From: Lysobacter enzymogenes
GTDB taxonomy: Bacteria; Pseudomonadota; Gammaproteobacteria; Xanthomonadales; Xanthomonadaceae
Reading direction: 5' to 3'
Assembly (NCBI RefSeq): GCF_023617245.1
Contig: NZ_CP067396.1
Coordinates: 6,043,271 to 6,075,270 of the forward strand
Length of the DNA stretch: 32,000 bases
Shown: positions 13,065 through 32,000 of the stretch, piece after piece
How positions within the stretch are numbered: position 1 is the first letter of the stretch
How the letters are laid out: the number at the start of each line of letters is the position of its first letter
Program-made: the position numbers and the translations under genes
Notes under the pieces: model-generated
Seen by the model: the letters and a program-made list of their open reading frames with translations, nothing else
Told to the model about the DNA's origin: nothing
The model's database searches: none

Positions 13065-13073
13065 GAGCTGACA

Positions 13074-13409: not shown

Positions 13410-13451
13410 CGCATGCCTCTTGACTAAAATCAGGTAAGTGATGCGCATAAG

Positions 13452-13477: not shown

Positions 13478-14099
13478 GGGCCAAGGCGACACCACCGATC
13501 GCAGCTGCTCCTGTCGTTGTCGGCCGAAGGAACGCGACCTCGCATCCCCGAGCGCTCCGACGACGGCGCTAGCGCTGAGTCCATGCGCCCAAGCCTCGCC
13601 AGTTCATCCTGCAGGTCATAGGTGATGTCGGCCAAGCCACGCACTTCGATTGCGGACTCCGACTGGATGTGGGCGGTGCGTACGCTCGACACGAGCGCCA
13701 CATCGACGGGACGGAAAGCCTCCGCCTCCCGAGTCTTGGCATCAGCCATCAACGCGTGGCCGAGCATGACGCGCTTACGCGACGACCGGCGTGCTGACGG
13801 CGCCGGCTCAAGTCGCTCCTCCCGCTAGCCGCAGATCCAGCCGATGTCGGCGCAGAGTTTCAGTAGCTTCGCCTCGAGGCTGTCGCGTAGGACGGTCACC
13901 TTGAGCGTCCAGACCGCTCGTCGCGGTTGATTGCGCTCCATGTTCTTCAATGTTGCTTCGTGCTCGTAGTTGACCAGCGAACACGATGGGGTCAGGTCGG
14001 CGGGAGCTCAAGCGCTTTCGCGATGCTGTGACGGTGGTGATGGTCGTGACGGTGCATCCCGACCTTTACCTACGCGCGAAAACGGAGGTATATCCGTAG

Positions 14100-16865: not shown

Positions 16866-17304
16866 TCTAGCTATTGCGCTTATCCTCATCGCATCGGGAT
16901 GCAAGGATGAGAAACGCGACGAATTTGTTATCAGTGACCGATTTTCCCTCTGCGCACCAAACGAGGAAATTATTTCAACATCACTCAAAAATGGCATCGA
17001 CGCAACAAAAGGCGATATCTGGATCGGTCGCGACAAGGCCGAAATCGTCATTGATGCGCATCCATACTACCCACTGCGCGAAAAAGTTAAATCACACGAG
17101 AATGCCAAGCCTGGAATTACCCACATAGACTCGGGCAGATATACTTTCCCCTCGGGACCGGGAGAGAGGGAGTTCAACCTGTCCACTTATCGCCTTGAAG
17201 ATGGCAGGACTATTTTCATAGTCCTCTCCGGGGCATCAGATAATACAACCCGCGAATCGCTCATAAATATTCAAAATAAACTATGCCCCTGCGGGAGCTG
17301 TTAA
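16831..17304 (+). CDS. putative lipoprotein immunity protein for the metallopeptidase toxin
   Basis: MQTGASVVAKNSLAIALILIASGC has a lipobox-like ASG-C. It overlaps the rhs 3' end by 35 nt and is AT-rich. The start is uncertain: ATG 16804, ATG 16831 or GTG 16849. Confidence 0.6.
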   Translation: MQTGASVVAKNSLAIALILIASGCKDEKRDEFVISDRFSLCAPNEEIISTSLKNGIDATKGDIWIGRDKAEIVIDAHPYYPLREKVKSHENAKPGITHIDSGRYTFPSGPGEREFNLSTYRLEDGRTIFIVLSGASDNTTRESLINIQNKLCPCGSC

Positions 17305-17327
17305 CGATAGATCCATCTCTAAAAAAA

Positions 17328-17354
17328 GGCCTCGGCAACGGGACCTTTCTTTTT
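17328..17354 (+). terminator. cassette-boundary hairpin, copy 3 (degenerate)
   Basis: GGCCTCG-GCAA-CGGGACC followed by TTTCTTTTT. Relative to the other copies it has one mismatch and one G:U pair. Confidence 0.5.
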
Positions 17355-17371
17355 GTGCTGTAGCTACAGAA

Positions 17372-19477
17372 GTGATCGCCGCTGTTCGCAGGCTCTACAA
17401 CGAACTGAGCGCGATCAAGGACGCCTCGCAGAACGCCACTGGCTTCACATACGACGCCCTGGGCAATCCGGACCGGACTACCGATGCGCTGGGCCGGATC
17501 ACCGATCAGGATTACGATCCGCTCGGACGCTTGGTGCGCACCTTGCAGGATGTGGGCGGTTTGGAAGTCCAAACGGATGTTCGTTACAACGCGCGGGATC
17601 AGATCGTCCAGGTCACCGATCCCAACCGACTGGCGACCCACTATCGTTACAACGGTTTCGGCGACCAGATCCAGTTGGAGAGTCCCGACACCGGGACCAC
17701 CGACTACACCTACGATACCGCCGGCCAGTTGGCGACCAAGAAAGACGCCAACGACGCGGCCGCGAACCGCTACACCTACGACGCGCTGGGTCGACCGAAG
17801 GCGATCTTCTACACCGCGGCGGGTCCGGCCGATGTCGAGTACGACTACGACACTGTCAACACCGAATGCATCGCCGGGCAGACCTTCGCCCAGGGTCGCC
17901 TGACCGCGAGCCGGACCGAAGGCAACGAGTTGAAGTACTGCTACGACCGCTTCGGACACGTCGTGCGCAAGGTGCAGATCGTCGCGGGCAAGAGCTTCAC
18001 GCTGCAGTACGCCTACACGCCGGGCGGCAAACTGAGCGCGGTCACCTACCCCGATGGCGCCATGGTCGATTACGTCCGGGACGCACAAGCCCGTATCCAG
18101 GAGATCGGAGTCCAGCCGACTGGTGGCGCCCGCACGGTGCTGTTGAACAATACGACCTACGACCCGTTCGGTCCGGTGACCGGCTGGACCTATGGCAACG
18201 GTCGCGTCCTGAGCCGCACATACGATCTGGACTACCGGCCCAAGACCGTCTTCGATGCCGCCAGCGGCGGCTTGTCGCTGGGTTACGGCTACAATTCCGC
18301 CGGCGAATTGACCGAGCTTAAGGACGGTCTGCAGAGCAACCTCCAGGCCAAGTACGACTACGATACGCTCGGCCGGTTGACGGTTACCCGTGACGGCGCC
18401 TCTAACGCGCTGGACACCTATGGGTACGACAAGATCGGAAATCGCACGAGCCTGGCTCATGGCGACATTACCGATACCTACGCTTACCCCTTGACCAACC
18501 ACCGACTGAGCAGCGTGGCCGGTGTGGCGCGCGGTTACGACGCGGCCGGCAACACCACCAGCGTGGGAGGTAACGCCAAGGAATTCGTCTAGAACGCCAA
18601 CGACCGACTGAACCAGTTCAAGCATGCCGGCGTGATCAAGGCAAGTTATCGTTACAACGCCATCGGTGAGCGCGTTGCAACCACTGGCGGCACAATCGGC
18701 GTCGTCCATACCTACACGCTATATGACGAAGCCGGCCACTGGATCGGCGATTACGACAGCACCGGCGCGGCCAGGCAGCAGGCCGTGTGGTTCGACGATG
18801 CACCAGTCGGCGTGGTGGTTGGCAGTGGTGGCGCGCAGGCGCTGCACCATGTACAGCCGGACCATCTGGGTACGCCGCGCGCAGTCATCGATCCCAGCCG
18901 CAATGTTGCAGTCTGGACCTGGGATGCCAAGAGCGAGGCATTCGGCAATAGCCCGCCGAACCAAGACCCAGATCAGGACGGCACCGCATTCGTGTTCGAT
19001 ATGCGGTTCCCGGGGCAGCGACTCGATGTCGTAAGCGGATTATTTTACAACTACCATCGCGATTACGACTCATCTGTCGGCCGTTATGTTCAATCTGATC
19101 CGATCGGTCTCACGGGTGGAATTCTTCTGTATGGCTATAGCTGGAGCAGCCCACTTATCAATAGCGATCCCTTTGGTCTGCAGCCGGCCAACACCGTAGT
19201 TTGCGGAACAGATGGCAAACTAGTCGTAAAAGTCGATAGCGGCCAATCAGAGTACTGCGGGCTGAAGGAGTGTCTCATTAGACACGAAGAATGCCACGCG
19301 AAGGAAATGAGCGAAGATAAGAATATCGTGGAATTCTGCTCGACCCCTGGCAACGCGAACAAATCCATCTATATCGACTGGAAGCAGAAACAGGCCTTGG
19401 AACTTACAGGAACTCAGGCCGAGCTGGACTGCCTGAATAAAAAGCAAAAAAAGAAGATTACACTTGCAGAAAAGTAA
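17372..19477 (+). pseudogene. orphan rhs C-terminal cassette 3 (small Cys-rich HExxH tail), interrupted by an in-frame TAG
   Basis: It is colinear with main rhs 9069-10856 at a constant offset of 8324 nt. An in-frame TAG at 18590-18592 sits where the paralogs have TAC (EFVYNAND). The core ends with DPFGL at 19166-19180. The 98-codon tail has six Cys and HEECH (19283-19297). Confidence 0.8.
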
Positions 19478-19562
19478 TAAACGAACGCATTAAAAAGATC
19501 CAACAAAATCGCAATGCCTGTGAGTCAGATGAAAAAAATGCGTATTCAAATGAGGCGATCCT

Positions 19563-20042
19563 ATGAAGCCAATAGCGCTCCTTCTCCCGCTCTGTCTTTT
19601 GACATCTGAAGTCACGGCCAGCCCAAAATTCACGATGGCCGTGGATTCGAATATTGATCGAAAAGCAGGTGACGCGGAGTTGACGTTCAATCTCACTTTA
19701 TCCGGCCCCAACCCTGTCGCTGTGGCTAGGAGTTCGATTCCAGGCGTCCAAAAGAATGCCATATGGACAAGCGCGGAATATTTCCCAAATTATGGGGAAA
19801 AATATCGTCCTTGCCCAAAACCAAAGGAAAAAATTGAGATCAACGACGGACTCCTCGGCACCACCACAATTAAGCCGGGACAGTCGTTTCAGCAGAAAAT
19901 GAAACTTTCAGATTTGTATTTTAATGCCAATGAGATCGTAGGAAAATGCGATCTAGTCTTGTTCTGGACCTACAAGCCAGAACTCGAATCAGGCGAACAT
20001 ACCGAGCGACTTGCTGGAGCGGTCGTCATAACAGCCGAGTAG
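19563..20042 (+). CDS. putative exported immunity protein for orphan cassette 3
   Basis: The signal peptide is MKPIALLLPLCLLTSEVTASP. GAGG lies ~9 nt upstream. It is AT-rich and a paralog of 20368-20865. Confidence 0.6.
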   Translation: MKPIALLLPLCLLTSEVTASPKFTMAVDSNIDRKAGDAELTFNLTLSGPNPVAVARSSIPGVQKNAIWTSAEYFPNYGEKYRPCPKPKEKIEINDGLLGTTTIKPGQSFQQKMKLSDLYFNANEIVGKCDLVLFWTYKPELESGEHTERLAGAVVITAE

Positions 20043-20367: not shown

Positions 20368-20865
20368 ATGAGCCATCACATGAAATGGACAGCACTGTTG
20401 ACCGCCCTTGCCCTCTCGATGCCCGCGGGAGGAACCGAGAGGCCTGAATTCGAAATTACTGTTGCACAAGAAGTGGGCGCCAAGGCAGGCGATGCGACCC
20501 TACATTTCGATCTGTCGTATAACGGCCAGCAACCAGTAAGAATCAGAGCTAGCTCGGTACCGGGCACACAGGATACTGCAATATGGATACTGGCCGAGCG
20601 CTTCCTCGACATTGGATCGAGCACTCGGGGCGACTGCCCGAGGCTGAAAGAAATAATCTTCATTGATGATGGGAAGCTGGGCAGTACGACAATCCATCCC
20701 GGGCAGCACATCAAACAGTCGATCAAGCTCTCCGATCGATATTCAAACACGGCGCAAGTAGTTGGGAAATGCGACACTGTTGTGTTCTGGAGTTATAAGC
20801 CAGATAAAGAGACCGGCGACAGTCAGCGCGTGTCCGGAGCAATTCTGTTGCCCGGCGCACATTAA
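20368..20865 (+). CDS. orphan exported immunity-protein paralog with no adjacent toxin
   Basis: A signal peptide (MKWTALLTALALSMPAGG) is present. It aligns along its length with 19563-20042, for example KAGDATLHFDLSYNG vs KAGDAELTFNLTLSG and VVGKCDTVVFWSYKPD vs IVGKCDLVLFWTYKPE. The start is ATG 20368 or 20380. Confidence 0.6.
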   Translation: MSHHMKWTALLTALALSMPAGGTERPEFEITVAQEVGAKAGDATLHFDLSYNGQQPVRIRASSVPGTQDTAIWILAERFLDIGSSTRGDCPRLKEIIFIDDGKLGSTTIHPGQHIKQSIKLSDRYSNTAQVVGKCDTVVFWSYKPDKETGDSQRVSGAILLPGAH

Positions 20866-22468: not shown

Positions 22469-22803
22469 ATGACAGTCCTTTGTGATGAGCGGATGTGGGC
22501 GGCTGTACCGCCGGGTTGTTTCATCGCACTACTACGCGAAAAGCCGGTTTCCGCGGCCGATTCATTCCGCTCGGATTCGATCCCAAGCCGTACCAGCGCG
22601 GCATCCCATATCGGCCCGCATTCCCGATTCGAACATCGCGTCGCCCACGCGATGCGAGCAACGGACCCGATCATCCACGCACTCCCGCTCTCTTCCGAAC
22701 GTTCGTCGCTTTCGCCGAAGATGCGACGCACGACACCTGCCGACCGTTCATCGCGTTGCATCTGTGAATACAATGCGAATCCGATTCATCGCGAGGACGC
22801 TCC

Positions 22804-24015
22804 GTGGCAGACATGCCCGTCGGCGCAGCACGCTTGCAAACCCCGACACCGGCCGCGCAGGCCCACCGATTGCCCGGACTCGATGTATTGCGGGCGATCG
22901 CCGTGGCGTGGGTGATGCTGTTCCACTCCTTCCTCAACGAAGGACCCGACGAAGGCCTGGTGTGGCTGTGCCATTACGGCTGGATGGGCGTCGATCTGTT
23001 CTTCGTGCTCAGCGGCTACCTGATCGGCTCGCAGGTGTTGACGCCGCTCGCGCGCGGCGAGCGTCTGTCGTTCGGCGGGTTCTATCTGCGCCGCGCGTTC
23101 CGCATCCTGCCGGCGTTCCTGGCGGTGCTGGCGGTGTATCTGCTGGTGCCGGGATTCCGCGAGTCGCCGGGGCTGGAGTCGGCGTGGAAGTTCCTGAGCT
23201 TCACCCTCAATCTGCTGATCGATTACCGCCAGAACCAGGCGTTCTCGCACGCGTGGTCGCTGTGCGTGGAGGAACATTTCTATCTGGTGTTCCCGCTGCT
23301 GGCATGGTGGCTGATGCGTCGCGCCTCGACCGCGGCGTTCGTCGCGATCTGCGCGAGCGTGGTGCTGGGCGGCATCGCCTTGCGCGCGGGCGTTTGGTTG
23401 CACGACTTCGAAACCGAGGGACCGGTCGGCGAATCGGCGCGCAGCTGGTTCGCCGAGGACATCTATTTCCCGACCTGGAACCGGCTCGACGGCTTGTTGG
23501 CCGGCGTGGTGTTGGCCAGCCTGAAGACCTTCCGCGCGCAGTGGTGGCGACGCGCCCAGGCCTACGCCAACGTCGCCCTGCTCGCGGGATTGGGCGTGGT
23601 GGCCGCGGCCATGTGGCTGTTCCGCGAGCGCACCGGCTTGCTCGCCAACGCGATCGGCTGGCCGGTGTTGTCGGTCGGCTTCGCCTTGCTGGTCTTCGCC
23701 GGCACTACGCGCGCCAGTTGGATCGGACGCTGGTCGATCCCGGGCGTGGGCTGGTTGGCGGCCACGTCCTACAGCCTGTACTTGGTGCACAAGGGCGTGT
23801 TCCACGTGGTGGACGAATCCGTCGGCAAGCTGCTGGCGGGCCACAGCCTCGTCGCCTTCGCCACCTACGGCACCGCCGCATTGGCCGCCGCCGCGGTGCT
23901 GCACTACGGGGTGGAACAGCCGTTTCTGCGGCTGCGCGACTGGGCGCTCAACGCTCGGGCCAGGACGCACACGCCGGGCGCGGGCGCGGTTCGAGGTCCC
24001 GCGTTGAGCGAGTGA
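22804..24015 (+). CDS. acyltransferase family 3 (OafA/YrhL-like) integral membrane protein
   Basis: LPGLDVLRAIAVAWVMLFHS...GWMGVDLFFVLSGYLIG...HAWSLCVEEHFYLVFPLL are hallmark acyltransferase-3 motifs. Roughly ten hydrophobic segments are present. GTG 22804 has GAGGA 6 nt upstream; ATG 22813 is an alternative start. Confidence 0.9.
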   Translation: MADMPVGAARLQTPTPAAQAHRLPGLDVLRAIAVAWVMLFHSFLNEGPDEGLVWLCHYGWMGVDLFFVLSGYLIGSQVLTPLARGERLSFGGFYLRRAFRILPAFLAVLAVYLLVPGFRESPGLESAWKFLSFTLNLLIDYRQNQAFSHAWSLCVEEHFYLVFPLLAWWLMRRASTAAFVAICASVVLGGIALRAGVWLHDFETEGPVGESARSWFAEDIYFPTWNRLDGLLAGVVLASLKTFRAQWWRRAQAYANVALLAGLGVVAAAMWLFRERTGLLANAIGWPVLSVGFALLVFAGTTRASWIGRWSIPGVGWLAATSYSLYLVHKGVFHVVDESVGKLLAGHSLVAFATYGTAALAAAAVLHYGVEQPFLRLRDWALNARARTHTPGAGAVRGPALSE

Positions 24016-24121
24016 GGCGAGTATCGCCGCCGCGGCGCGCACGGGCTGGCCGCGCTTCGATGCCGCTGCCGGCCATCGCCTGCGCCATGCGAACGATAGC
24101 AAGCGCGACACGCTAAACCGC

Positions 24122-24143
24122 CGGCCGGAACGGATTCCGGCCG
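24122..24143. terminator. bidirectional hairpin between convergent genes
   Basis: CGGCCGGAA-CGGA-TTCCGGCCG, a perfect 9-bp stem. It lies between the acyltransferase stop (24015) and the minus-strand stop at 24173. Confidence 0.45.
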
Positions 24144-24172
24144 ACGGCTCGTGCTTACCCGACGACCGAAGA

Positions 24173-24721
24173 TCAGTAGAGGACGTTTTCCTCTTCGATG
24201 ATCGCCGGGCTGGCTTCCTTCACCCCGGCCAGCGCCTGGATCTTGCGCATCGCGCTCATCGCGTCCTGCACCGAGCCGAATTCGATCCGGCCGTTGCCGC
24301 CGACCTTCGAGGAGTACGTCAGCTTGCCGCCGCTCGCGCGCACGGCGGCGTCGAGCGCCGAGGCGTCGGCGACGTAGACGTTCAAGGTGGAGGTCACCAC
24401 CACCGGCTTGCCGGTGTCGGCGATCGCCGCCGCCATCTTCTGCTTGGCGGGCGCGACGGTCTTGCTCGCGGACTTGGCGCCGCCCGGCTGCAGCTTGATC
24501 TGGTACTTGCCGACCTGCACCTGCTGGGCATCGGCGGCCTGCGCGGTCTTGAGCGCACTGACCTGGGCCTGCGGCGCGAGGGTGAAGCGGGTGTCGCCGA
24601 TGCTGAAGCTGTCGCCGGTCGCGGCCTGCTGCAGTTCGCGGCGGGCGTTGTCGCCGGTTTGCGCGCTGGCGATGCCCGCCGCCGCCAGCAGGATCGGAAC
24701 GAGGAGTGCTTGGGTTTTCAT
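24173..24721 (-). CDS. secreted protease partner, ASP-ORF2-like external chaperone / propeptide-like protein (copy 1)
   Basis: It starts 2 nt after the protease stop. The signal peptide is MKTQALLVPILLAAAGIASAQ. The C-terminal VRASGGKLTYSSKVGGNGRIEFGSVQDAMSAMRKIQALAGVKEASPAIIEE has the layout of a subtilase I9-type propeptide. It is a paralog of 30578-31138. Confidence 0.65.
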   Translation of the reverse strand: MKTQALLVPILLAAAGIASAQTGDNARRELQQAATGDSFSIGDTRFTLAPQAQVSALKTAQAADAQQVQVGKYQIKLQPGGAKSASKTVAPAKQKMAAAIADTGKPVVVTSTLNVYVADASALDAAVRASGGKLTYSSKVGGNGRIEFGSVQDAMSAMRKIQALAGVKEASPAIIEEENVLY

Positions 24722-24723
24722 GG

Positions 24724-26487
24724 TCAGTGCCCCAGGACGCGGATCTTGAAGGAGTTGAGCTTGCCCTTGGCGGCGGCGTTCGCGGCCAGCGGCACGTCGG
24801 CGATTTCCAGGGTCCAGGTGCCCTTGGCCGGCTCGTCGAGGAACGCGTTGGACGAGACGAAGTCGAGCTTGAACGCGGAGCTGCTCACGCTGGTCATCGC
24901 CGGCACGATGGTGCTGCGCGTGCCCTTGGGCGAGATCAGCACGACCTGCAGCGGGAACGGCGTGTTCGAGGCGCTCGAATAGTCGGTCGCCAGGCCCAAC
25001 TGCACGCCTTCGATCTTGGCGATGTCGCGGTCGATCGCGATCTGCAGCTTGGCCGGCGCGCCGGCGCCGCCGATGGCGACCGCCTGCGCCGGCGCGACGC
25101 GCTGCCAGCCGCTGTCGACCAGCGCCGGCAGCGGCTTGAAGCGGCCGGCGAGTTCGACCGCGGCGGTCGCGTCCACCAGGCCGAAGCCGTACCAGTTGCT
25201 GAAGAGGCGGCCCGCGGCGTTCTTGCGCCAGCCCGGAACCAGCAAGGTTCCGTTGGCGTGCTTGACGTCCGGCTGGTCCTTGTCCACCTGGCGCGCGGTC
25301 GTGGCCAGGATGTACTTGACCTCGCGCACGCCGAGCTTTGGATTGGCCTGCAACACCAGCGCAGCCACGCCGGACACCGTCGGCGCCGCCGCCGAGGTGC
25401 CGCTCATGGTGCCGTTGTAGTCGCAGCTCGCATCGATGGCCGAAGTCGCGTGGTCGAGCCGGTTGAACGCTTCGGCGTCTTCGCGGTTGTAGCCCATCGC
25501 GCAGCCGGAGGGGTCCGTCGTCACGATCGCGGGGCTGTAGATCGCGTCGCCGAAATACCCGCGATACAGCGTTTGCGTCGCGTCGCTCAGAACGTCGCGC
25601 TCGGCGCCGAACTCGCCGCCCAAGCCCGACACCCACAGTGCGGAACCGGCCGAGGAGTACACCGCGCGTCGGCCGCTCGCATCCACCGACGCGATGGTCA
25701 TGACGCCGAACAGGTTGTTGCGCGGGTCCAGACCCGTCTGCACGCACCCCACGTTGGCGTCGATGATGACCTGCGCGCACTTCGGCCGCGAGCCGCCGAC
25801 GTCGCGCTGCAGGTAGTTGTTGCCGGCTGCCTTGACGAAGACGCGTCCGCGCCCGTTGCGCGCGGCCGCCATCGGCTTCTCGTAAGCGTCGACCTGGTTC
25901 TCGGAGAACGTCTGCGGCGACCCGCTGCCCACGCCCCAGCTGTTGTTGGAGACATCGACGTCCTGCGCTTCGGCGCCGTTCCACCACGCGTAGAAGATCT
26001 TGTCCTCGCTCAGCGAAGTGGAGACGTCGCCGAAGCCGTTGAAGCTCTTGAGCCGCGCGCCCGGTGCGACGCCGCGCACGCCGATGCCGTTCCAGCCCAC
26101 CGCGCCGATGATGCCGGCGACCGAGGTGCCGTGGCCGTAGCTGGGCGTCGTCGGCGTCGGATCGTGTTCGGGGCGGCCCGGATCGAAGTTCTTGGAACCG
26201 TTGGGCACCACGTTGGCGACGAGGTCGGCATGGTGGATGTCCACGCCCTGGTCGAGCACGCCGACGACGACGCCCTTGCCGCGGATGTTGTAGTCGTGCA
26301 GGTCGTCGATGCCCAGGTCGACCGCGACCGTCGGCTTGGTGTCGCCGAGCACGGCCTGGCCGTAGTTCATCAGATGCCATTGATAGCGATACAGCGGATC
26401 GCCTTGCTGCGCCTGCGCGGCCCCGGCCGACAGGGCCGCCAGGGTCGCTACGCCGAGGATCGTTCTCTTGCCGAATAGCTGTCGCAT
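24724..26487 (-). CDS. kexin-like subtilase (peptidase S8) with C-terminal P-domain and no N-terminal propeptide (copy 1)
   Basis: AAGGAG lies 7 nt upstream of ATG 26487. The signal peptide ends AAQAQQ and is followed directly by DPLYRYQWHL. Triad contexts are VGVLDQGVD, GHGTSVAGIIGA and GTMSGTSAAAPTVSGVAAL. The C-terminal GTWTLEIAD...GKLNSFKIRVLGH is P-domain-like. Confidence 0.9.
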   Translation of the reverse strand: MRQLFGKRTILGVATLAALSAGAAQAQQGDPLYRYQWHLMNYGQAVLGDTKPTVAVDLGIDDLHDYNIRGKGVVVGVLDQGVDIHHADLVANVVPNGSKNFDPGRPEHDPTPTTPSYGHGTSVAGIIGAVGWNGIGVRGVAPGARLKSFNGFGDVSTSLSEDKIFYAWWNGAEAQDVDVSNNSWGVGSGSPQTFSENQVDAYEKPMAAARNGRGRVFVKAAGNNYLQRDVGGSRPKCAQVIIDANVGCVQTGLDPRNNLFGVMTIASVDASGRRAVYSSAGSALWVSGLGGEFGAERDVLSDATQTLYRGYFGDAIYSPAIVTTDPSGCAMGYNREDAEAFNRLDHATSAIDASCDYNGTMSGTSAAAPTVSGVAALVLQANPKLGVREVKYILATTARQVDKDQPDVKHANGTLLVPGWRKNAAGRLFSNWYGFGLVDATAAVELAGRFKPLPALVDSGWQRVAPAQAVAIGGAGAPAKLQIAIDRDIAKIEGVQLGLATDYSSASNTPFPLQVVLISPKGTRSTIVPAMTSVSSSAFKLDFVSSNAFLDEPAKGTWTLEIADVPLAANAAAKGKLNSFKIRVLGH

Positions 26488-27016
26488 GCCGCCGACTCCT
26501 TGGTTTTCGCCGGGCATGCCGCGCCCGTCGCAGCCGGAGCGCTCGCTCCGGCCGATGCGGGCCGCATGCACGGGGTGGGTGGACTGATCGGTCCTATCTA
26601 GAACGCGTGGCGATCGACGAACCCCTATCCGCGCGACGGGTTCGGCCGGTCAGCAAACCGAACGCTGCGGGCATGGGGGAGGCTGGCTGCGTTGCGTTGT
26701 CGTGGCTGATTTTTCGTCAGCGCGCGCGCAGTTCGTGTCGCTCGCGCCGGTTCGGCGCAGGCAATCGACGCGCGCTATGCCCGCATGAGCGCTGCGACGA
26801 TGGCGCACGAGGGTTCGGCGATCCCACTGACGGGGTGCGCGTGTTTTTATGACAATGCGCGATATTCGGCTCGCCGCGGCTCGATGCGCGGCGGATCGAC
26901 GAGCGCGCTGCGCGCATCGCGCGCGCGATGCGGCTGTCTCCAAGGCTCGTATACGCCGAGCCGCGGCGGCGGCGAGGCCGCTGCCGCCGCGGACGATGTC
27001 TGGTGCGGCGCCAGCG

Positions 27017-27235
27017 TCAGCAGCTGACGGTCTGTCCGCCGGTGTAGACGCTGGTCACGGTGCCGGTGACGGTGATTTGCCCGGTGCACTGGTTGTGCAC
27101 GGCGTGGCCGACGATTTGTCCGTCCTGATAGTAGGTGTAGGCCCAACCGGGAGGCGGCAGTTTCCCTCCCGCCGCCCATGCGATGCTGGTCACGCCCGCC
27201 AAGGTCAGTGCAAGCAACAGGGTCTTCGCGCGCAT
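27017..27235 (-). CDS. small secreted two-Cys peptide (DUF6289-like?)
   Basis: AAGGAG lies 8 nt upstream. The signal peptide is MRAKTLLLALTLAGVTSIAWA. The ~50-aa mature part, GKLPPPGWAYTYYQDGQIVGHAVHNQCTGQITVTGTVTSVYTGGQTVSC, ends in Cys. Confidence 0.6.
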   Translation of the reverse strand: MRAKTLLLALTLAGVTSIAWAAGGKLPPPGWAYTYYQDGQIVGHAVHNQCTGQITVTGTVTSVYTGGQTVSC

Positions 27236-27562
27236 CTCGGGTTTCTCCTTGTGTCCGGCCGGATGCCGGAACTACAACATGCGCACCCGGCAACGCGTGC
27301 GCACGCCGCATCGCATCATCGTGAAACGCGGGTTATCGCTGAATGCGGCGAAATTCATGATCGCGGACACGAAACCCGCTTCGGGTCGCGATGCCGGCGA
27401 AACGAGCTGCTCAAAACGAAGATCTATCGAAGCGGATAGCGCCATGGCTACGGCCGCAATCGCCGCATTACGCCGAGGCTTGGCTGGGTCGATGATCCGC
27501 CCGATGCCCGCCGCGCCGCGCAAGCCGAGACCCCGCGACACGTCGAACACAGCGACCGCAGT

Positions 27563-28036
27563 TCAACCCGGATCGCGGCCGTCGGATGGCGATGCCGCGG
27601 CAGCGGGCGCCTTGAGTTGCGCAGGCAAGACGACGCGTCCGCCGTCGTCGCGGCGCAGCGGAGCGATGCCTGTCACCAGCGCTTTGTCCAACGCGGCGTA
27701 CAGGTGGGGAAACAGCAGCCCGCTGCGCGGCGAGAGTTCCCATTTGAGCTGTTCGCCGGCGGCGCGCAGATCCACCGCCGCGACGAACAGGTCGTCGTTG
27801 CCGGCGAAATGCAGGTCGGCGGTGCGGGTCAGCTGGCTTTCGGTGGAGAGGTGGACGAAGCCGTCTTCCAGGTCCTTGGCCGAACCTTCGAATCGTCCGC
27901 TCGCGTCGAGCGTGTGCCGCTCCGACCGGGTCAGGATCTTGTAGGCGATCGGCGGACGCGCGGCGCCCGCGCCCGCCGGCGTGTCTTGGCCGTCGCCACC
28001 GGCCAGCATCGATGCGATGAGCGCGATTGCGATCAT
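27563..28036 (-). CDS. DUF952 domain protein
   Basis: IAYKILTRSE...DGFVHLSTESQL...LFVAAVDLRAAGEQLKWELSPRSGLLFPHLYAALDKALV matches the DUF952 pattern (DGFIHLS ... WE.SR.G..FPHLYG.L). GGGAG lies 7 nt upstream of the ATG. Confidence 0.8.
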   Translation of the reverse strand: MIAIALIASMLAGGDGQDTPAGAGAARPPIAYKILTRSERHTLDASGRFEGSAKDLEDGFVHLSTESQLTRTADLHFAGNDDLFVAAVDLRAAGEQLKWELSPRSGLLFPHLYAALDKALVTGIAPLRRDDGGRVVLPAQLKAPAAAASPSDGRDPG

Positions 28037-28433
28037 TCTGGATCTCCCGTCGTGTCCTGCGCAGCGAGCGCACGCTCATAGCGTAGCGAACGCCGCACGC
28101 CACTGCTACGCGACGACCGCCGCGCGGCGCGAGTCGGGCCGTTCGCAGCGGCGTCGCTTGCGCCGAGCGCGCTCACTCTTCCGAGATGCGGCTTTGCGCC
28201 GGCTTCACGTACCCGTAGCCGCCAGACCGCTTGGAAACGACGCTTGTTCGTTTCATGCTCCATGCGGCGGGTCGAACCCGCACCGTGGCGCGCGACGATC
28301 GAACCTGTGTCGATCCCATTTTCGAAATGCAAAACCGGCCGAGTGTTTCGTGCGCGCCAGCGACTTCGGCAACGCATCGGCACTGCGCCGCGATCGGCGA
28401 CGCGTGCAGCGACACCTATTCAGCCGCTGCGCT

Positions 28434-29102
28434 TCAGATGAAGCACGATTCGAAGTTCTCGCTCTCGACCGGCGCGCGGTTGTACTTCTTCACGAACGAC
28501 TCCGGCTTGCGCACGAACGCTTCGAACGCGCGCTGCCCGCTGGAGACGGCGTGCGCCAGGGCGTCGTAGAAACTGTCGTCGCCGCCGAGGAACAGCTGGT
28601 CGCCGGCCTGTTTTTCCAGGCGCTCCACCGCTTTTTGCAGTTCGCGCCGGTATCGGGCCGCGGCCTTTGCGATCCGCACCAGTTCCGCCGCGCGCAGCCG
28701 TTCGCGCAGGGCCGCGCGCGCGATCGCCGGGTACGCGGGGTCGAGGCTGGATTTGGGCCAGTCCAAAGCGGCGACGACGGACCAAAAATCCTTCGGCTCG
28801 GCGCGCGCCAGCCGCGCGGCCAGACGCTTGGCCTTCGGGTCCGGCCGCAGCGCTGCGTCGTCCAGGCGCTGGCTTTTCTTCAGCAACGCATCGACCTGGG
28901 CGCGCGGCAGGGAGAACACCGTTCTCGACCCCAGTTCCTTGAGGATCAGGCGGCACGCGCTCTTGTCCGAGGTCGCGGCGCGCACGCCGAAGGCGGCGCC
29001 CTTGACCAGCACGCCGGACTGGCCGCGCGCGTTGGCCAACGCGCAGGCCTGCCTGGCCTGGTACAGGTACCACTGGTAGGAATCGCCGCCGAGTATCGCC
29101 AT
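28434..29102 (-). CDS. hypothetical protein with DUF4240-like C-terminal half
   Basis: AAGGA lies upstream of ATG 29102. FWSVVAALDW...LFLGGDDSFYDALAHAVSSGQRAFEAFVRKPESF resembles DUF4240 (FW.LI ... GG.SDD.F.DF..W.I.QG). The upstream 178 codons of the 400-aa track ORF look like non-coding read-through. Confidence 0.5.
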   Translation of the reverse strand: MAILGGDSYQWYLYQARQACALANARGQSGVLVKGAAFGVRAATSDKSACRLILKELGSRTVFSLPRAQVDALLKKSQRLDDAALRPDPKAKRLAARLARAEPKDFWSVVAALDWPKSSLDPAYPAIARAALRERLRAAELVRIAKAAARYRRELQKAVERLEKQAGDQLFLGGDDSFYDALAHAVSSGQRAFEAFVRKPESFVKKYNRAPVESENFESCFI

Positions 29103-29317
29103 GGTCCGTCCTTGCCGCGCAGCGACGATGCGCGCCGGCGCGATCATCGTCCTGGGTCGGGCCGATACTATCCCATGGGTCCTGCCGCGGCGTTTCGCGC
29201 GCTGGCGGCGAACGGCCGCGCCGACCGGCGCGAAGCCGCGCCGTCGCGGGGCCGCCCGGTCCCACCGGCTGGGTCCTGGCGCGGCGCGAACGGCCGCGTC
29301 GTGCGGCCCGCCGGACG

Positions 29318-29725
29318 CTAATCGACGCGGCGCTGGCGCTTGGCGCGGAAACGCTTCTCGCGCACGCGCCGTTCGGCGTAGGCGACCACGCGCGCGGACC
29401 ACGCTTCGAGCATGACCCCGCTGTTGGCCAGCACCGTCCATACGCCGCGCTCGATCCAGCGTTCGTTGCGGTTGTAGCAGACCCGCCAATCGCCGAACTG
29501 GTCCTCGGGCAACTGGGTCCAGGCGCATTGGCCGACCATCACCGACAGCGCCGCATCGACGAAGCGGCGCGTATCGGGCCGGCGCGAATCCTCCAGGGCG
29601 ATGACCTGGCGCACCACCTGTTCCAGCAACGGCCATTCGCTGTCGCTGAGTTGCACGAAGCGGGCGCGTCCGCGCGCATCTTCGCGTCCATGGCCGATCC
29701 GGTCCCGCCTGATTTCGGTTTGCAT
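29318..29725 (-). CDS. stand-alone IS5-type transposase N-terminal HTH (DUF4096-like) protein without a DDE domain
   Basis: LSDSEWPLLEQVV...RRPDTRRFVDAALSVMVGQCAWTQLPEDQFGDWRVCYNRNERWIERGVWTVL fits the DUF4096 pattern (LSD.EW..I...GRP..D.R...A.L.V..TG..W..LP...G.W..VY.R..RW...GVW). A basic tail follows and then a stop. No DDE ORF lies downstream. Confidence 0.7.
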   Translation of the reverse strand: MQTEIRRDRIGHGREDARGRARFVQLSDSEWPLLEQVVRQVIALEDSRRPDTRRFVDAALSVMVGQCAWTQLPEDQFGDWRVCYNRNERWIERGVWTVLANSGVMLEAWSARVVAYAERRVREKRFRAKRQRRVD

Positions 29726-29794
29726 GCTTCCCTCCTGGCTGCGCGTCGCGCCGCGGCCTCGCGGTCGCCGGCGCGCGCGTTCACTCCTGTGCGT

Positions 29795-30211
29795 TCATTC
29801 CTGCCGGAGCAGGCGCTCGCGTTTGCGCGCGCCGCGACGCGCCCGCTCCTGGTCCTGGCGCTGCGCGTACTGGGCGATGCGTTGCGCCCAGGCCTGCGGC
29901 AGGGCGCCGCTGCGCAGCGCCCGCAGCCACACGCCGCGCGCCATCCAGCGGCGGTTGCGGCGGTAGTTGGACACCCAGTTGCCATAGTCCTGCGCCGGCA
30001 GGTCGGTCCAGTAGCAATGGCCGGTCATCACCGACAGCGCGGCGTCGACGAAGCGACGGTCGTCACGCTCGCTGCCGGCGCGCACCAGCGCCGGTTCGCC
30101 GAGCGCGCGCTTGAACGCCTCCCACTCGCCGTCGTCCAGCGCGATGGCACGGCGCTGCGCGTTCGCCGCCGCCGTGGCCGCGTCGTCGCGCGGCGTCGGG
30201 TCGTGCTCCAT
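29795..30211 (-). CDS. second stand-alone DUF4096-like HTH protein (paralog)
   Basis: AGGAG lies 8 nt upstream of ATG 30211. LDDGEWEAFKRAL...ERDDRRFVDAALSVMTGHCYWTDLPAQDYGNWVSNYRRNRRWMARGVWLRAL is parallel to 29318-29725. Confidence 0.7.
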   Translation of the reverse strand: MEHDPTPRDDAATAAANAQRRAIALDDGEWEAFKRALGEPALVRAGSERDDRRFVDAALSVMTGHCYWTDLPAQDYGNWVSNYRRNRRWMARGVWLRALRSGALPQAWAQRIAQYAQRQDQERARRGARKRERLLRQE

Positions 30212-30546
30212 GGTACTGCTCCTGCTCCGAATCCCCGGTTCTCGATCTCTTGCGCCTTTTCCGAATCCTTGTCGTTCTCGCGCCCGCGCCGCGCGCGTCG
30301 TCGCGCACGTCGCCGCGCCTACCGACATCGGGCCGCGAAGGCGACGCCGGGGCGCGCGCCGCCCTCGGCGCCGGCGCGTTGCCGGCGCACGCTGCGGGTC
30401 GTCCGCGATCGTGTCGATCCCTGCGAAGCCGGCGGGCGTCTTCGCGTCTGCGCCAGCCTGGCTGGCGTACTGCGGCCGCCGCGGGCGGCGAACCGCGGGG
30501 CCGGCAGCGGCCCCGCCTATGCACACGCGTCTACCTGCGAAACCGC

Positions 30547-30568
30547 GGCGCCGGGCGAGCCCGGCGCC
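30547..30568 (-). terminator. GC-rich hairpin just downstream of the ORF2-like gene, copy 2
   Basis: GGCGCCGGG-CGAG-CCCGGCGCC, a 9-bp stem. On the minus strand only a weak U-tract (GGTTTCG) follows. Confidence 0.35.
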
Positions 30569-30577
30569 GCGACGCGA

Positions 30578-31138
30578 TCACCACGGAACCCGACGCTGCT
30601 CGACCAGGCGCGGATTGACTTCCTTCACGCCGGCCTGGCCCTGGATCAGCTGGCGCGCCTGCATCGCCTGGCTCACCGAGGCGTAGCCGATGGTGGCGTT
30701 GCCGCCGACCGCCGAGGAGTACAGCAGGGTGCCGCCGGTCTGCTTGACCAACTGGTCGACCACGCCCGGGTGGCTGAAGTAGACGTTGAGCTCGGGCGCG
30801 ACGATCACCGTGTCGCCGGACCCGGACACCGCGGCGCCGAGGTTCTCGCCGCCGACGCTGAGCGAGCGGGCGCTGCGCGCGCTCGCCACGGCCGCCGCCG
30901 GTACCGCGACCACGTAGTCGCCGGGCACGAGTTCGCGACCGGCCTCGGTGCTGGCTTCGGCCGGCTTGGTGACCACCGCCGACGGCGCGATGCGGTACTC
31001 GGTGTGGCCGATGGTGAAGCTTTCGCCGACCGCGGCCTGGGCCAGTTCGGCCTTGGACGCGGAGACCTGGGCCAGTGCCGCCGGCGCCATCGCCATGGCC
31101 AGCACGCCCGCGCAGATCGAAAGGGAATGATTTTTCAT
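30578..31138 (-). CDS. secreted protease partner, ASP-ORF2-like external chaperone / propeptide-like protein (copy 2)
   Basis: It starts 2 nt after the protease stop. The signal peptide is MKNHSLSICAGVLAMAMAPAALAQ. It aligns with copy 1, for example ELAQAAVGESFTIGHTEYRIAP vs ELQQAATGDSFSIGDTRFTLAP and GGTLLYSSAVGGNATIGYASVSQAM vs GGKLTYSSKVGGNGRIEFGSVQDAM. Confidence 0.65.
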   Translation of the reverse strand: MKNHSLSICAGVLAMAMAPAALAQVSASKAELAQAAVGESFTIGHTEYRIAPSAVVTKPAEASTEAGRELVPGDYVVAVPAAAVASARSARSLSVGGENLGAAVSGSGDTVIVAPELNVYFSHPGVVDQLVKQTGGTLLYSSAVGGNATIGYASVSQAMQARQLIQGQAGVKEVNPRLVEQRRVPW

Positions 31139-31140
31139 GC

Positions 31141-32000
31141 TCAGTGCCCCAGGACGCGGATCTTGAACGAGGAGAGTTTGCCCTTGGCGTCGGTACCGGC
31201 CGCGAGGCTGGTGTCGGCCACTTCGACCGTCCAATTGCCGGTGCCGGACTCGTCGAGGAAGGCGTTGACCGCGGCCAGGTCGAAGGTCATCGTCGCGCCG
31301 ACCGGCACCGAGCCGGCGGGCACCACGATCGCGCGGGTGCCGCTCGGCGAGACCAGGGTGACGACCAGCGGGGTGGACTTCAGCGGCAGGGTGTTGCCGA
31401 CCGGGTAGTCCGAGGCCAGGCCGATCTGCACCGCTTCGATGCGGCCCGCGCCGGCGGCGAGGTTGACGCTGGCGCGCGCCGGCGCCGAAGCGTTGCCGAT
31501 CGCCTGCGGGGTTTCCAGGTCCACGCGCTGCCAGCCGCTGTCGACCAGGGCGCCGAGCGACTTGAAGCCGGTCGCGCGGGTCACCGCGGCGGTCGCGTCG
31601 ACCAGGCCGTAGCCGTACCAGTTGCTGTAAGGACGGCCGGCGGCGTTGGTGGTCCAGCCCGCCGACAGCACGGTGCCGTTGGCGTCGGTCACCGCGGCCT
31701 GGGTCGGATCGACCTTGCGCGCGGTGGTGGCGAGGATGTACTTGACGTCGCGGAAGCTCAGCTTCGGGTTGGCCTGCAGCAGCAGCGCGACCACGCCGGT
31801 CACCGTCGGCGAGGCCGCCGAAGTGCCGTTCATGGTCGCGGCGTAGTTGCAGGTGTTGTCGATGGCGGACTGGTTCGACTCCAGGCGGTTGAGGTCGAAG
31901 TCGGACCAGAACTGCACCGGGGCCACCCGGTTGGTGTTGTAGCCGCGCGCGCAGCCCGACAGGTCGGTGGTCATGATCGCCGGATCGAAGCGCACCGCCG
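31141..32000 (-). CDS. kexin-like S8 subtilase with P-domain (copy 2), N-terminal part outside window
   Basis: NGTSAASPTVTGVVALLLQANPKLSFRDVKYILATTARKVD provides the catalytic Ser context. The P-domain tail GNWTVEVAD...GKLSSFKIRVLGH is present. The frame stays open and homologous to copy 1 up to the window edge. Confidence 0.88.
   Translation of the reverse strand, partial: AVRFDPAIMTTDLSGCARGYNTNRVAPVQFWSDFDLNRLESNQSAIDNTCNYAATMNGTSAASPTVTGVVALLLQANPKLSFRDVKYILATTARKVDPTQAAVTDANGTVLSAGWTTNAAGRPYSNWYGYGLVDATAAVTRATGFKSLGALVDSGWQRVDLETPQAIGNASAPARASVNLAAGAGRIEAVQIGLASDYPVGNTLPLKSTPLVVTLVSPSGTRAIVVPAGSVPVGATMTFDLAAVNAFLDESGTGNWTVEVADTSLAAGTDAKGKLSSFKIRVLGH

What the first reader, a model, noticed from the sequence alone, without database searches (positions are those of the whole stretch)
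24173..32000. Two paralogous operons of a propeptide-less kexin-like protease plus a trans-encoded propeptide-like partner
In both copies the subtilase begins its catalytic domain right after the signal peptide (AQAQQ/GDPLYRYQWHL), so it has no intramolecular chaperone. Both copies end in the identical KIRVLGH. Each is followed after exactly 2 nt by a secreted ~185-aa protein whose C-terminal half has the layout of an I9 subtilase propeptide (GG.L.YSS.VGGN..I...SV..AM......Q..AGVKE..P). This matches the Aeromonas sobria ASP/ORF2 external-chaperone arrangement, the only characterised example I know. Two diverged copies sit 4 kb apart here. Their partner tails differ (EEENVLY vs QRRVPW), which raises the question of chaperone-protease specificity.
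Basis: partly seen in the sequence, partly recalled or inferred. Interest (0 to 1): 0.65.

Follow-up and report, generated by a model that had tools for sequence, protein, structure and literature searches.

The report
Propeptide-less Lysobacter proteases with separate chaperones
The window holds two of several duplicated Lysobacter gene pairs in which a secreted kexin-like protease has no built-in folding propeptide and is followed by a small secreted protein that supplies a propeptide-like domain separately, a divergent, unannotated version of the known Aeromonas ASP/ORF2 system.

Summary

- **Genes.** On the minus strand there is a complete S8 + P-domain protease (24724-26487) and its 182-aa partner (24173-24721). 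There is also a 186-aa partner (30578-31138) behind a second protease, which the window end cuts off (31141-32000). In both pairs the stop codon is followed by 2 nt and then the partner's ATG.
- **Protease.** The closest solved structure is Aeromonas sobria ASP (E=3e-81, 40% identity). The mature domain starts right after the signal peptide, and no upstream reading frame could hold a propeptide.
- **Partner.** It has no direct Pfam or PDB sequence hit. A confident AlphaFold model shows a beta-alpha-beta-beta-alpha-beta domain plus a floppy 7-residue tail. Its best structural match among 350,542 PDB chains is ORF2, the ASP chaperone, followed by subtilase and convertase prodomains. Bridging sequences link the family to Pfam ORF_2_N and to the fervidolysin prodomain.
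- **Distribution.** A 97.7%-identical genome has four pairs in this cluster, and L. enzymogenes Lj46 has eight. Stenotrophomonas StmPr3 and Xanthomonas homologues belong to the same clade.
- **Tails.** Partner tails are conserved within orthologues (81%) but unrelated between paralogues (17%).
- **Verdict.** These are new, divergent members of a known kind of system. Interest is moderate.

The parts
24724..26487 (-). Protease 1 (D-type): a 587-aa secreted kexin-like S8 subtilase with a P-domain and no propeptide. A signal peptide of about 26 aa (..GAAQA/QQGD) is followed at once by the mature-domain motif DPLYRYQWHL. The catalytic residues are D79, H119, N223 and S365. It ends FKIRVLGH, with the stop at 24724-24726.
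   Evidence: ORF and start codon: (AAGGAG before the ATG). Pfam S8 7.5e-44 and P_proprotein 1.7e-11. ASP 3hjr E=3e-81. Conserved triad.
24173..24721 (-). Partner 1: a 182-aa secreted protein and candidate external chaperone / temporary inhibitor. It has a signal peptide, an N-terminal beta region (about residues 34-77), a disordered linker (78-95), a propeptide-like beta-alpha-beta-beta-alpha-beta domain (106-175) and the tail EEENVLY.
   Evidence: AlphaFold model. Foldseek rank 1 is ORF2 3wqb_B. No direct Pfam or PDB sequence hit.
24722..24723 (-). The 2-nt spacer between the protease 1 stop (TGA) and the partner 1 ATG. A GGGG run inside the last protease codons (CTG GGG CAC TGA) could serve as the ribosome-binding site, which implies translational coupling.
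30578..31138 (-). Partner 2 (C-type): a 186-aa secreted protein, 36% identical to partner 1, with the same architecture and the tail EQRRVPW.
   Evidence: The identical protein is encoded in L. yananisis L001 10001-10561.
31139..31140 (-). The 2-nt spacer between the protease 2 stop and the partner 2 ATG.
31141..32000 (-). Protease 2 (C-type): the C-terminal 285 codons, covering the catalytic Ser region (GTSAASPTV) and the P-domain, ending FKIRVLGH. The window end cuts off the 5' part. The orthologue in the 97.7%-identical L001 is 589 aa and begins with a signal peptide followed by DPLYRYQWHL.

Best explanation
These are two of a multi-copy set of ASP/ORF2-type modules. Each pairs a secreted, propeptide-less kexin-like subtilase with a trans-encoded 'external propeptide' translated from the same mRNA.

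Proposed mechanism:

1. Both proteins are exported by Sec into the periplasm. This is read from the sequence, since both carry signal peptides.
2. The partner's C-terminal beta-alpha-beta-beta-alpha-beta domain docks on the catalytic domain as a subtilase prodomain does and helps it fold. This is inferred from the fold and from the ASP-ORF2 complex, 3WQB.
3. The partner's 7-residue C-terminal tail lies in the substrate cleft in a product-like way, with the last residue in S1. This keeps the protease silent until export. It is inferred from ORF2, whose C-terminal Lys sits next to the catalytic Ser336 (PMC5638518).
4. The complex leaves through the type II secretion system, then dissociates, and the partner is degraded. 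This is inferred from ASP and from StmPr3, the Stenotrophomonas member of this clade, which is Xps-dependent (PMC11089167).

The paralogues differ most in the partner tail and in the protease's substrate-binding loops. Each chaperone is therefore probably matched to its own protease, and the tail probably reports that protease's subsite preference (Tyr, Trp, Leu, Thr/Asn, Arg or Met at the last position, instead of the Lys of ORF2).
For: - **Protease is ASP family.**
- **No propeptide possible.**
- **Tight coupling.** A 2-nt spacing in both copies, and -4 to +3 nt in the other Lysobacter loci.
- **Conserved synteny.** A small ORF (signal peptides where read) lies directly downstream of the protease in 73 of 76 fetched loci, from Lysobacter, Stenotrophomonas, Xanthomonas, Luteibacter, Janthinobacterium, Herbaspirillum, Aeromonas, Photobacterium and Salinivibrio. 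In the other three the contig ends first. In L041 the downstream ORF is a second protease.
- **Partner fold.** The model is confident, and its best PDB structural match is ORF2 itself, followed by subtilase and convertase prodomains.
- **Sequence bridges.** X-profile against the strict ORF2 profile gives P=4.2e-5, aligned in register to within one residue of the C-terminus, while reversed and shuffled controls give P>=0.2. The L072 partner passes the PF18492 ORF_2_N gathering score and scores 60.8 bits with the Lysobacter-type profile. Fifteen of 60 members hit the PF22148 fervidolysin prodomain.
- **Real, constrained family.** There are 60 clusters at 50% identity among 1.84 billion proteins, and the 16-sequence alignment has 31 invariant columns.
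- **Co-divergence.** Mantel r=0.89 between protease and partner identity, with 0 of 5000 permutations reaching it.
- **Tails.** 81% identical within orthologue groups and 17% between paralogue groups, against 53% for the adjacent domain.
- **Variable loops.** The loops after SWG and after AAGN, which by general knowledge of subtilisin line the S1 pocket, are hypervariable between paralogues.
Against: - No experiment on any member of this clade shows dependence on the partner.
- The window partners have no direct sequence match to ORF2, to Pfam ORF_2_N or to I9.
- The Foldseek E-values are weak (0.02), and the fold is a common ferredoxin-like one.
- My first strong hhalign score (1.3e-8) came largely from having placed the bridging sequence L072 in the ORF2 set. 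Against the strict set the Lysobacter-only profile gives P=0.13.
- Co-divergence is expected from tandem duplication alone.
- The ASP insertion that carries Arg-566, which contacts the ORF2 tail, is absent here, so tail binding may differ in detail.
- I found no simple rule linking the tail's last residue to the pocket residues.
Confidence: 0.8

Rival explanations
1. The partner is only a periplasmic inhibitor or immunity protein, comparable to a free-standing I9-type inhibitor. It protects the cell envelope from a protease that folds on its own, and has no chaperone role.
For: The prodomain-like fold plus a C-terminal tail is also the architecture of stand-alone subtilase inhibitors. ORF2 itself inhibits ASP (IC50 84 nM, PMC5638518). 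The tail specificity fits an inhibitor equally well.
Against: These proteases have no propeptide at all. By established knowledge, subtilases of this class need a prodomain to fold, and ASP specifically requires ORF2 to become active (PMC5638518). The strict one-to-one linkage with translational coupling across every genus sampled suggests an obligatory stoichiometric partner.
Confidence: 0.12
2. The small protein has nothing to do with protease maturation. It could be a secretion pilot, a substrate, or a component linked to the neighbouring fimbrial genes, and the fold resemblance to prodomains would then be a coincidence of a common ferredoxin-like topology.
For: Foldseek E-values are only 0.02-0.2, and ACT, RRM and BMC domains appear in the same list. 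FimA-like genes sit next to most Lysobacter modules. The N-terminal half of the partner has no assigned function.
Against: The top structural hit out of 350,542 chains is precisely the chaperone of the homologous protease. Bridging sequences reach Pfam ORF_2_N and a subtilase prodomain family. The partner stays next to the protease in genera that have no fimA-like gene there.
Confidence: 0.05
3. One or both copies in the window are decaying duplicates (pseudogenes), so that only some pairs in the cluster still function.
For: About 4 kb containing two DUF4096 ORFs (putative IS4/5-family transposase domain) separates the two pairs in the window, so the region has been rearranged.
Against: Both partners and protease 1 are intact ORFs. 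The catalytic residues are kept. Orthologues of each type are conserved in other Lysobacter genomes with type-specific tails.
Confidence: 0.03

Closest known systems
Aeromonas sobria serine protease ASP and its external chaperone ORF2 (PDB 3HJR, 3WQB; Pfam PF18492 ORF_2_N)
   Same: - The protease is a kexin-like S8 subtilase with a P-domain and no propeptide, 40% identical to ASP.
- A small secreted protein is encoded immediately downstream on the same strand.
- The partner has a prodomain-like body plus a short C-terminal tail, and ORF2 is its best PDB structural match.
- The C-terminal P-domain strand ..R[VI]LGH is shared.
   Different: - The partner is 30-35 aa longer than ORF2 (152 aa).
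- It has no direct HMM match to ORF2 or PF18492.
- Its N-terminal region is predicted to be a folded beta structure.
- Tails end in Tyr, Trp, Leu, Thr/Asn, Arg or Met rather than Gln-Pro-Lys.
- The protease lacks both ASP-specific insertions, including the roughly 19-residue 'occluding' segment with Arg-566 that touches the ORF2 tail (PMC5638518).
- The gene spacing is 2 nt, against 18 nt in Aeromonas.
- Lysobacter carries up to 8 paralogous pairs per genome, whereas each Aeromonas genome in the scan returned a single locus.
Stenotrophomonas maltophilia StmPr3 (Smlt4395), an Xps type II-secreted serine protease
   Same: It belongs to the same Lysobacterales clade and is 49-50% identical to protease 1. 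The 588-aa length matches, and the published StmPR3 primers lie inside the homologous gene (PMC6789491). A Lysobacter-type partner follows it (A1 profile E about 1e-31 to 1e-34 at Z=1e6).
   Different: Each Stenotrophomonas genome in the scan returned a single locus, the partner tail ends WEETK, and there is no fimA-like gene upstream. I found no paper that connects StmPr3 to an external chaperone.
Intramolecular propeptides of subtilases and proprotein convertases (Pfam I9 PF05922, fervidolysin prodomain PF22148; furin and PC1/3 prodomains)
   Same: They share the beta-alpha-beta-beta-alpha-beta fold and a C-terminal extension that ends at the active site. Fifteen of 60 partner-family members hit PF22148.
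   Different: Here the domain is a separate polypeptide with its own signal peptide and an extra N-terminal region of about 80 residues. It is not covalently attached, so no autocleavage step is needed. The window proteins themselves give no Pfam prodomain hit.

Membership tests
ASP-type propeptide-deficient kexin-like subtilases | S8 catalytic domain with an Asp/His/Ser triad and an oxyanion Asn | tested here: met
   PF00082 at 7.5e-44. D79, H119, N223 and S365 are invariant in the alignment with ASP.
ASP-type propeptide-deficient kexin-like subtilases | C-terminal P-domain (proprotein-convertase type) | tested here: met
   PF01483 at 1.7e-11 for protease 1 and 4.5e-07 for the protease 2 fragment. 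The match to ASP runs to chain residue 555, and furin P-domain matches are also present.
ASP-type propeptide-deficient kexin-like subtilases | No N-terminal propeptide: the mature domain follows the signal peptide | tested here: met
   DPLYRYQWHL begins 4 residues after the predicted AQA cleavage site. Only 54 non-coding-looking codons are open upstream. The same holds for all four paralogues in L001.
ASP-type propeptide-deficient kexin-like subtilases | ASP 'extra occluding region' with Arg-566 next to the active site | tested here: not met
   The segment VSLLNR(566)ETRERTTLTERNN of Aeromonas sobria ASP falls in a 19-column gap in all Lysobacter, Stenotrophomonas and Xanthomonas sequences. 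This is an ASP-lineage feature rather than a family-defining one.
ORF2-type external chaperone (Pfam PF18492 ORF_2_N) | Encoded immediately downstream of the protease, on the same strand, with its own signal peptide | tested here: met
   2-nt spacing in both window copies. A downstream ORF was found in 73 of 76 fetched loci, and in the other three the contig ends first.
ORF2-type external chaperone (Pfam PF18492 ORF_2_N) | Sequence match to the family model | tested here: inconclusive
   - The window partners give no hit at E<=1, and their profiles do not find 3wqb_B.
- hhalign against the strict ORF2 set gives P=4.2e-5 for the 53-sequence profile but 0.13 for the Lysobacter-only profile.
- The bridging members L072 (31.4 bits, gathering cut-off 29.2) and P0067 (21.8 bits) do hit PF18492.
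ORF2-type external chaperone (Pfam PF18492 ORF_2_N) | Prodomain-like central body plus a C-terminal tail | tested here: met
   In the AlphaFold model, residues 106-175 form beta-alpha-beta-beta-alpha-beta and the tail 176-182 has low confidence. Foldseek rank 1 is 3wqb_B, followed by prodomains. This rests on a prediction, not a solved structure.
ORF2-type external chaperone (Pfam PF18492 ORF_2_N) | Required for folding of the protease, and inhibits it through the tail | not testable with these tools
   This needs co-expression and inhibition assays.
Inhibitor I9 / subtilase propeptide (PF05922, PF22148) | Sequence match to a prodomain model | tested here: inconclusive
   The window partners give no hit. 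Fifteen of 60 family members hit PF22148, best E=3.2e-05 (P0067, 24.7 bits, above the cut-off of 21).

The most novel reading that the evidence does not exclude
Lysobacter keeps up to eight co-resident protease/chaperone pairs insulated from one another by a tail 'code'. Each partner's last ~7 residues would fit only its own protease's S1-S4 subsites. Cross-maturation and cross-inhibition would then be prevented, and the substrate specificity of each uncharacterised protease (P1 = Tyr, Trp, Leu, Thr/Asn, Arg, Met...) could be read directly from its partner's C-terminus. This would make a natural, evolvable toolkit of kexin-fold proteases with non-basic specificities. The highly conserved fimA-like gene in front of most modules may be part of the same unit.
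Probability: 0.35. Interest if true: 0.6.

Novelty: new member of a known kind. Interest (0 to 1): 0.4.

Why it matters
- **Reach of the principle.** The external-chaperone principle has been shown experimentally only for Aeromonas ASP/ORF2. An earlier PSI-BLAST search traced it to four other genera (PMC5638518). This work extends it to a whole Lysobacterales/Burkholderiales clade whose partner proteins are annotated only as hypothetical and escape the Pfam ORF_2_N model.
- **Practical consequence.** Lysobacter is a commercial source of proteases, and StmPr3 is a secreted protease of the opportunistic pathogen S. maltophilia. These enzymes will probably be inactive or insoluble in heterologous hosts unless the downstream gene is co-expressed.
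- **A natural experiment.** The paralogue series has conserved scaffolds and divergent tails. It can test how an intermolecular chaperone/inhibitor co-evolves with protease specificity.

Tried and rejected
- **Direct sequence searches of the partner.** phmmer and two profile searches against PDB sequences, Pfam and NCBIfam gave only chance-level hits. They did not find ORF2.
- **A correction to my own result.** My first profile-profile result (P=1.3e-8; 1.6e-10 for A3) was inflated, because the 'ORF2' set contained L072, which turned out to be a Lysobacter-type member. After removing L072 and L058 the signal dropped to 4.2e-5, 1.5e-3 and 0.13. I therefore rest the homology claim on the combination of fold, bridging sequences and synteny.
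- **S1 pocket rule.** I looked for a link between the tail's last residue and the S1-lining segments after SWG and AAGN. The segments are hypervariable, but no clear rule emerged.
- **Promoter and terminator scan of 23900-32000.** It found nothing above shuffled expectation.
- **Alternative start codon hiding a propeptide.** Rejected.
- **Primary literature.** The two JBC structure papers on ASP and ORF2 (PMC2785694, PMC4409271) are not held. What I say about the three-part architecture of ORF2 and its secretion as a complex comes from PMC5638518, PMC13492141 and my own recollection.
- **Prior descriptions.** Literature searches for earlier accounts in Lysobacter, Stenotrophomonas or Xanthomonas found none.
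- **Complex prediction.** It was not possible with the single-chain tool.

Full report
**1. What is in the sequence**

All the relevant genes lie on the minus strand.

- **Protease 1.** The ORF 24724-26571 contains a 587-aa protease whose real start is the ATG at 26487, preceded by AAGGAG. The product starts MRQLFGKRTILGVATLAALSAGAAQA/QQGDPLYRYQWHL and ends FKIRVLGH.
- **Partner 1.** Two nucleotides after the protease's TGA comes the ATG of a 182-aa protein (24173-24721). It has its own signal peptide and ends EEENVLY.
- **Second pair.** The same arrangement recurs about 4 kb away. A 186-aa protein (30578-31138, ending QRRVPW) starts 2 nt after the stop of a second protease. Only the last 285 codons of that protease (31141-32000) are inside the window.
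- **Junctions.** The 30 nt before the two partner start codons differ at just two positions.
- **Paralogy.** The two partners are 36% identical (E=4e-29). The two loci are about 70% identical in DNA over 920 bp.

**2. Source organism and true copy number**

- **Organism.** The partner is 98% identical to a hypothetical protein of Lysobacter yananisis. Window 22609-32000 is colinear with a 6.17-Mb L. yananisis contig at 97.7% identity.
- **Four pairs in the cluster.** In that contig the two window pairs are the last two of four tandem protease/partner pairs, which I call A, B, C and D. Each protease starts with a signal peptide followed by DPLYRYQWHL and ends FKIRVLGH. Each partner starts 1-2 nt after the protease stop. 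This supplies the missing 5' end of protease 2 by proxy: 589 aa and no propeptide.
- **More copies elsewhere.** A scan of one genome per species found 76 loci. L. enzymogenes Lj46 alone carries eight pairs, four in this cluster and four dispersed.
- **Between the pairs.** The 4 kb between the two window pairs holds a DUF952 gene, a DUF4240-like ORF and two DUF4096 ORFs (putative IS4/5-family transposase domain).

**3. The protease**

- **Domains.** Pfam finds Peptidase_S8 (7.5e-44) and the proprotein-convertase P-domain (1.7e-11).
- **Closest structure.** The best solved relative is Aeromonas sobria ASP (3hjr and 3wqb_A, E=3e-81, aligned over residues 29-566). Furin and kexin follow far behind.
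- **Identity.** It is 40% identical to ASP and 59-67% to its Lysobacter paralogues. D79, H119, N223 and S365 are invariant.
- **No propeptide.** The motif DPLYRYQWHL begins four residues after the signal-peptide cleavage site. From general knowledge, furin has the related D-P-x-F-x-x-Q-W motif about 8 residues after its propeptide cleavage site. The upstream frame is open for only 54 Arg-rich codons with no credible start.
- **Differences from ASP.** Both ASP-specific insertions are missing. One of them is the roughly 19-residue segment carrying Arg-566. That segment is part of the 'extra occluding region', helps select the P3 residue and touches the ORF2 tail (PMC5638518).

**4. The partner**

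*Direct sequence searches fail.* Pfam, NCBIfam and PDB sequence searches with the single protein, a 16-sequence profile and a 60-sequence profile all give chance-level hits only.

*The family is small but real.*
- It has 15 clusters in the 5.8-billion-protein index.
- It has 60 clusters at 50% identity among 1.84 billion proteins.
- The 16-sequence alignment has 31 invariant columns.

*The predicted structure.* An AlphaFold model built on that alignment is confident (pLDDT 82.9, pTM 0.75). It shows:
- a helix and five short strands in residues 18-77;
- a disordered linker (78-95);
- a beta-alpha-beta-beta-alpha-beta domain (106-175);
- a low-confidence 7-residue tail.

*Structural matches.* Foldseek against 350,542 PDB chains ranks 3wqb_B, the ASP chaperone ORF2, first (E=0.02, prob 1.00, rmsd 2.4 A over 72 columns, 24% identity). 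Next come the PC1/3 prodomain, the fervidolysin propeptide, furin-bound prodomains, PAM protease, and prosubtilisin at rank 36. The E-values are weak because the fold is short and common. Even so, the top hit is exactly the partner of the homologous protease.

**5. Is the partner homologous to ORF2?**

- **Synteny.** In 73 of 76 fetched loci a small ORF follows the protease closely, and it opens with a signal peptide in the examples I read. In the other three the contig ends first, and in L041 the downstream ORF is a second protease. This holds in Lysobacter, Stenotrophomonas, Xanthomonas, Luteibacter, Janthinobacterium, Herbaspirillum, Aeromonas, Photobacterium, Salinivibrio and several MAGs.
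- **Reach of the Lysobacter profile.** It recognises the partners of the first six genera (E<=1e-18 at Z=1e6) but not Aeromonas ORF2.
- **A correction to my own result.** A first profile-profile comparison gave P=1.3e-8, with clean reversed and shuffled controls. I then found that my ORF2 set included L072, which is really a Lysobacter-type member.
- **Strict comparison.** Against an Aeromonas/Photobacterium/Salinivibrio set the values are P=4.2e-5 (53-sequence profile, 70% probability, aligned in register to within one residue of the C-terminus), 1.5e-3 (60-sequence profile) and 0.13 (Lysobacter only).
- **Bridging sequences.** L072 scores 60.8 bits with the Lysobacter-type profile. It also scores 31.4 bits with Pfam PF18492 ORF_2_N, above the gathering cut-off of 29.2. 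A. sobria ORF2 scores 2.8e-33 on that model. P0067 hits both PF22148 (fervidolysin prodomain, 24.7 bits) and PF18492 (21.8 bits). Fifteen of 60 family members hit PF22148.

Taken together, fold, bridges, synteny and architecture make remote homology to ORF2 and to subtilase prodomains the best reading. The window proteins themselves stay below direct detection.

**6. Mechanism**

By analogy with ASP/ORF2, both proteins are exported to the periplasm. The prodomain-like body templates folding of the catalytic domain. The C-terminal tail occupies the substrate cleft as a temporary inhibitor. The complex is then secreted, and the partner is shed and degraded.

The published basis is as follows:
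- ASP needs ORF2 to become active.
- The C-terminal Lys-Pro-Gln of ORF2 sits at the active site next to Ser336.
- ORF2 inhibits ASP with an IC50 of 84 nM (PMC5638518; see also PMC13492141).

Type II secretion is inferred from StmPr3. The Stenotrophomonas homologues (49-50% identical, 588 aa) contain the published StmPR3 primer sites (PMC6789491). StmPr3 is secreted by the Xps system (PMC11089167).

None of these steps has been shown for Lysobacter.

**7. Paralogue specificity**

- **Co-divergence.** Across 19 Lysobacter pairs, protease and partner identities co-vary (Mantel r=0.89, 0 of 5000 permutations). Tandem duplication alone would produce this.
- **Rates.** Partners evolve faster than proteases (48% against 66% mean identity).
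- **Tail pattern.** This is the more telling result. Within orthologous groups the last seven residues are 81% identical, as conserved as the adjacent domain (80%). Between paralogous groups they are 17% identical, while the domain stays at 53%.
- **Type-specific tails.** They are EEENVLY (D), EQRRV[PA]W (C), EQLENM[VL]L (A) and EGEDAP[NT] or QGEDxMN (B). The dispersed copies carry IMTR, RVHPM, RNMKH and EELVLY. Stenotrophomonas has WEETK, Xanthomonas has AARPL or VMQPM, and Aeromonas has QQPK.
- **Protease loops.** The loops after SWG and after AAGN, which line S1 in subtilisins, are hypervariable between paralogues. I could not extract a residue-level rule.

This supports matched chaperone-protease pairs and diversified, non-basic specificities. 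It does not prove them.

**8. Comparison with what is known, and novelty**

The kind of system is known. ASP/ORF2 was described as a propeptide-deficient subtilase with an external chaperone. PSI-BLAST had traced asp/orf2-like operons to Vibrio, Shewanella, Chromobacterium and Pseudoalteromonas (PMC5638518).

The following appear not to have been described in the literature I could search:
- the Lysobacterales/Burkholderiales clade;
- its divergent and unannotated partner family;
- the link to StmPr3;
- the expansion to eight pairs per genome;
- the paralogue-specific non-basic tails.

I classify the finding as new, divergent members of a known kind. It is of moderate interest, with practical value for expressing these proteases.

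**9. Other observations**

- **FimA-like gene.** In Lysobacter only, a 178-aa FimA-like gene lies about 100 nt upstream of most protease modules. Its copies are 80-98% identical, even where the adjacent proteases are only 55-65% identical to protease 1. Only the A-type module sits behind a complete chaperone-usher operon.
- **Left part of the window.** Window 1-20000 has lower GC and carries a serine recombinase, a C5 methylase with a Cfr10I/Bse634I-type endonuclease, and Rhs toxin genes. The alignment with the L. yananisis locus begins only at window 22609.

Noticed in passing
L001 1807-2343 and 7590-8126; also L003, L005, L006, L007, L009, L010, L011, L013, L014, L054 at about 3370-3900 (in the window this would lie just beyond position 32000): A 178-aa FimA-like fimbrial subunit gene sits about 100 nt upstream of the protease in most Lysobacter modules. 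Its copies are 80-98% identical, although the neighbouring proteases are only 55-65% identical to protease 1 and the partners 37-56% identical to partner 1. It is absent from the Stenotrophomonas, Xanthomonas and Aeromonas loci. Only the A-type module follows a full chaperone-usher operon. This could reflect gene conversion, a shared promoter module or a functional link; which one is unknown.
   Followed up: partly
L015-L040 and L053 (Stenotrophomonas loci), protease at 4001-5722: The S. maltophilia Xps-secreted protease StmPr3 (Smlt4395, 588 aa) belongs to this propeptide-less clade. The published StmPR3 primers match inside the gene with 0 and 1 mismatches. It is followed by a Lysobacter-type partner ending WEETK. 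I found no paper that notes an external chaperone for StmPr3.
   Followed up: partly
window 1-20000: This stretch looks like a mobile or defence island with lower GC (0.47-0.62 from about 3 kb on). It carries:
- a serine recombinase (1103-2455);
- a C5 DNA methylase (3358-4593, minus strand) beside a Cfr10I/Bse634I-type restriction endonuclease (4961-5995);
- a 1538-aa Rhs protein (6684-11300);
- a DUF4329 protein (12402-13064);
- a second Rhs protein (14100-16865);
- an Rhs fragment (18632-19477).

The alignment with the L. yananisis locus L001 begins only at window 22609.
   Followed up: partly
window 19563-20042 and 20368-20865 (+): Two tandem paralogous small secreted proteins (159 and 165 aa, 47% identical, E=4e-50) with no Pfam match lie just after the Rhs fragment. 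They could be immunity-like or orphan cassette proteins.
   Followed up: partly
window 29318-29725 and 29795-30526 (-): Two tandem ORFs carry only the DUF4096 domain (putative IS4/5-family transposase), next to DUF4240-like and DUF952 genes. This roughly 4-kb block separates pair D from the rest of the protease cluster.
   Followed up: no
L041 (Xanthomonas campestris pv. asclepiadis), ORF starting 1 nt after the protease stop: The downstream ORF is a second 603-aa protease. Its first 35 residues match the N-terminus of the Xanthomonas partner (63% identity). The body of the partner gene has apparently been deleted, fusing its signal peptide to the next protease of a tandem array.
   Followed up: partly
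L019 ('Nocardiopsis yanglingensis' scaffold) and L055 ('Streptosporangium sp.' 1-kb contig): Two assemblies labelled as actinomycetes carry related copies. In L019 the displayed partner ends are identical to those of a Stenotrophomonas locus (L018). L055 is a 1-kb contig whose best segment is 62% identical to protease 1. Contamination of these assemblies is the most likely explanation.
   Followed up: no
window 24724-24753 and 31141-31170 (-), 3' ends of the two protease genes: The final 27 nt of both protease genes (TTCAAGATCCGCGTCCTGGGGCACTGA) are identical between paralogues that are otherwise about 70% identical. The encoded strand ..R[VI]LGH is also conserved in Aeromonas ASP. The GGGG run may double as the partner's ribosome-binding site.
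   Followed up: partly
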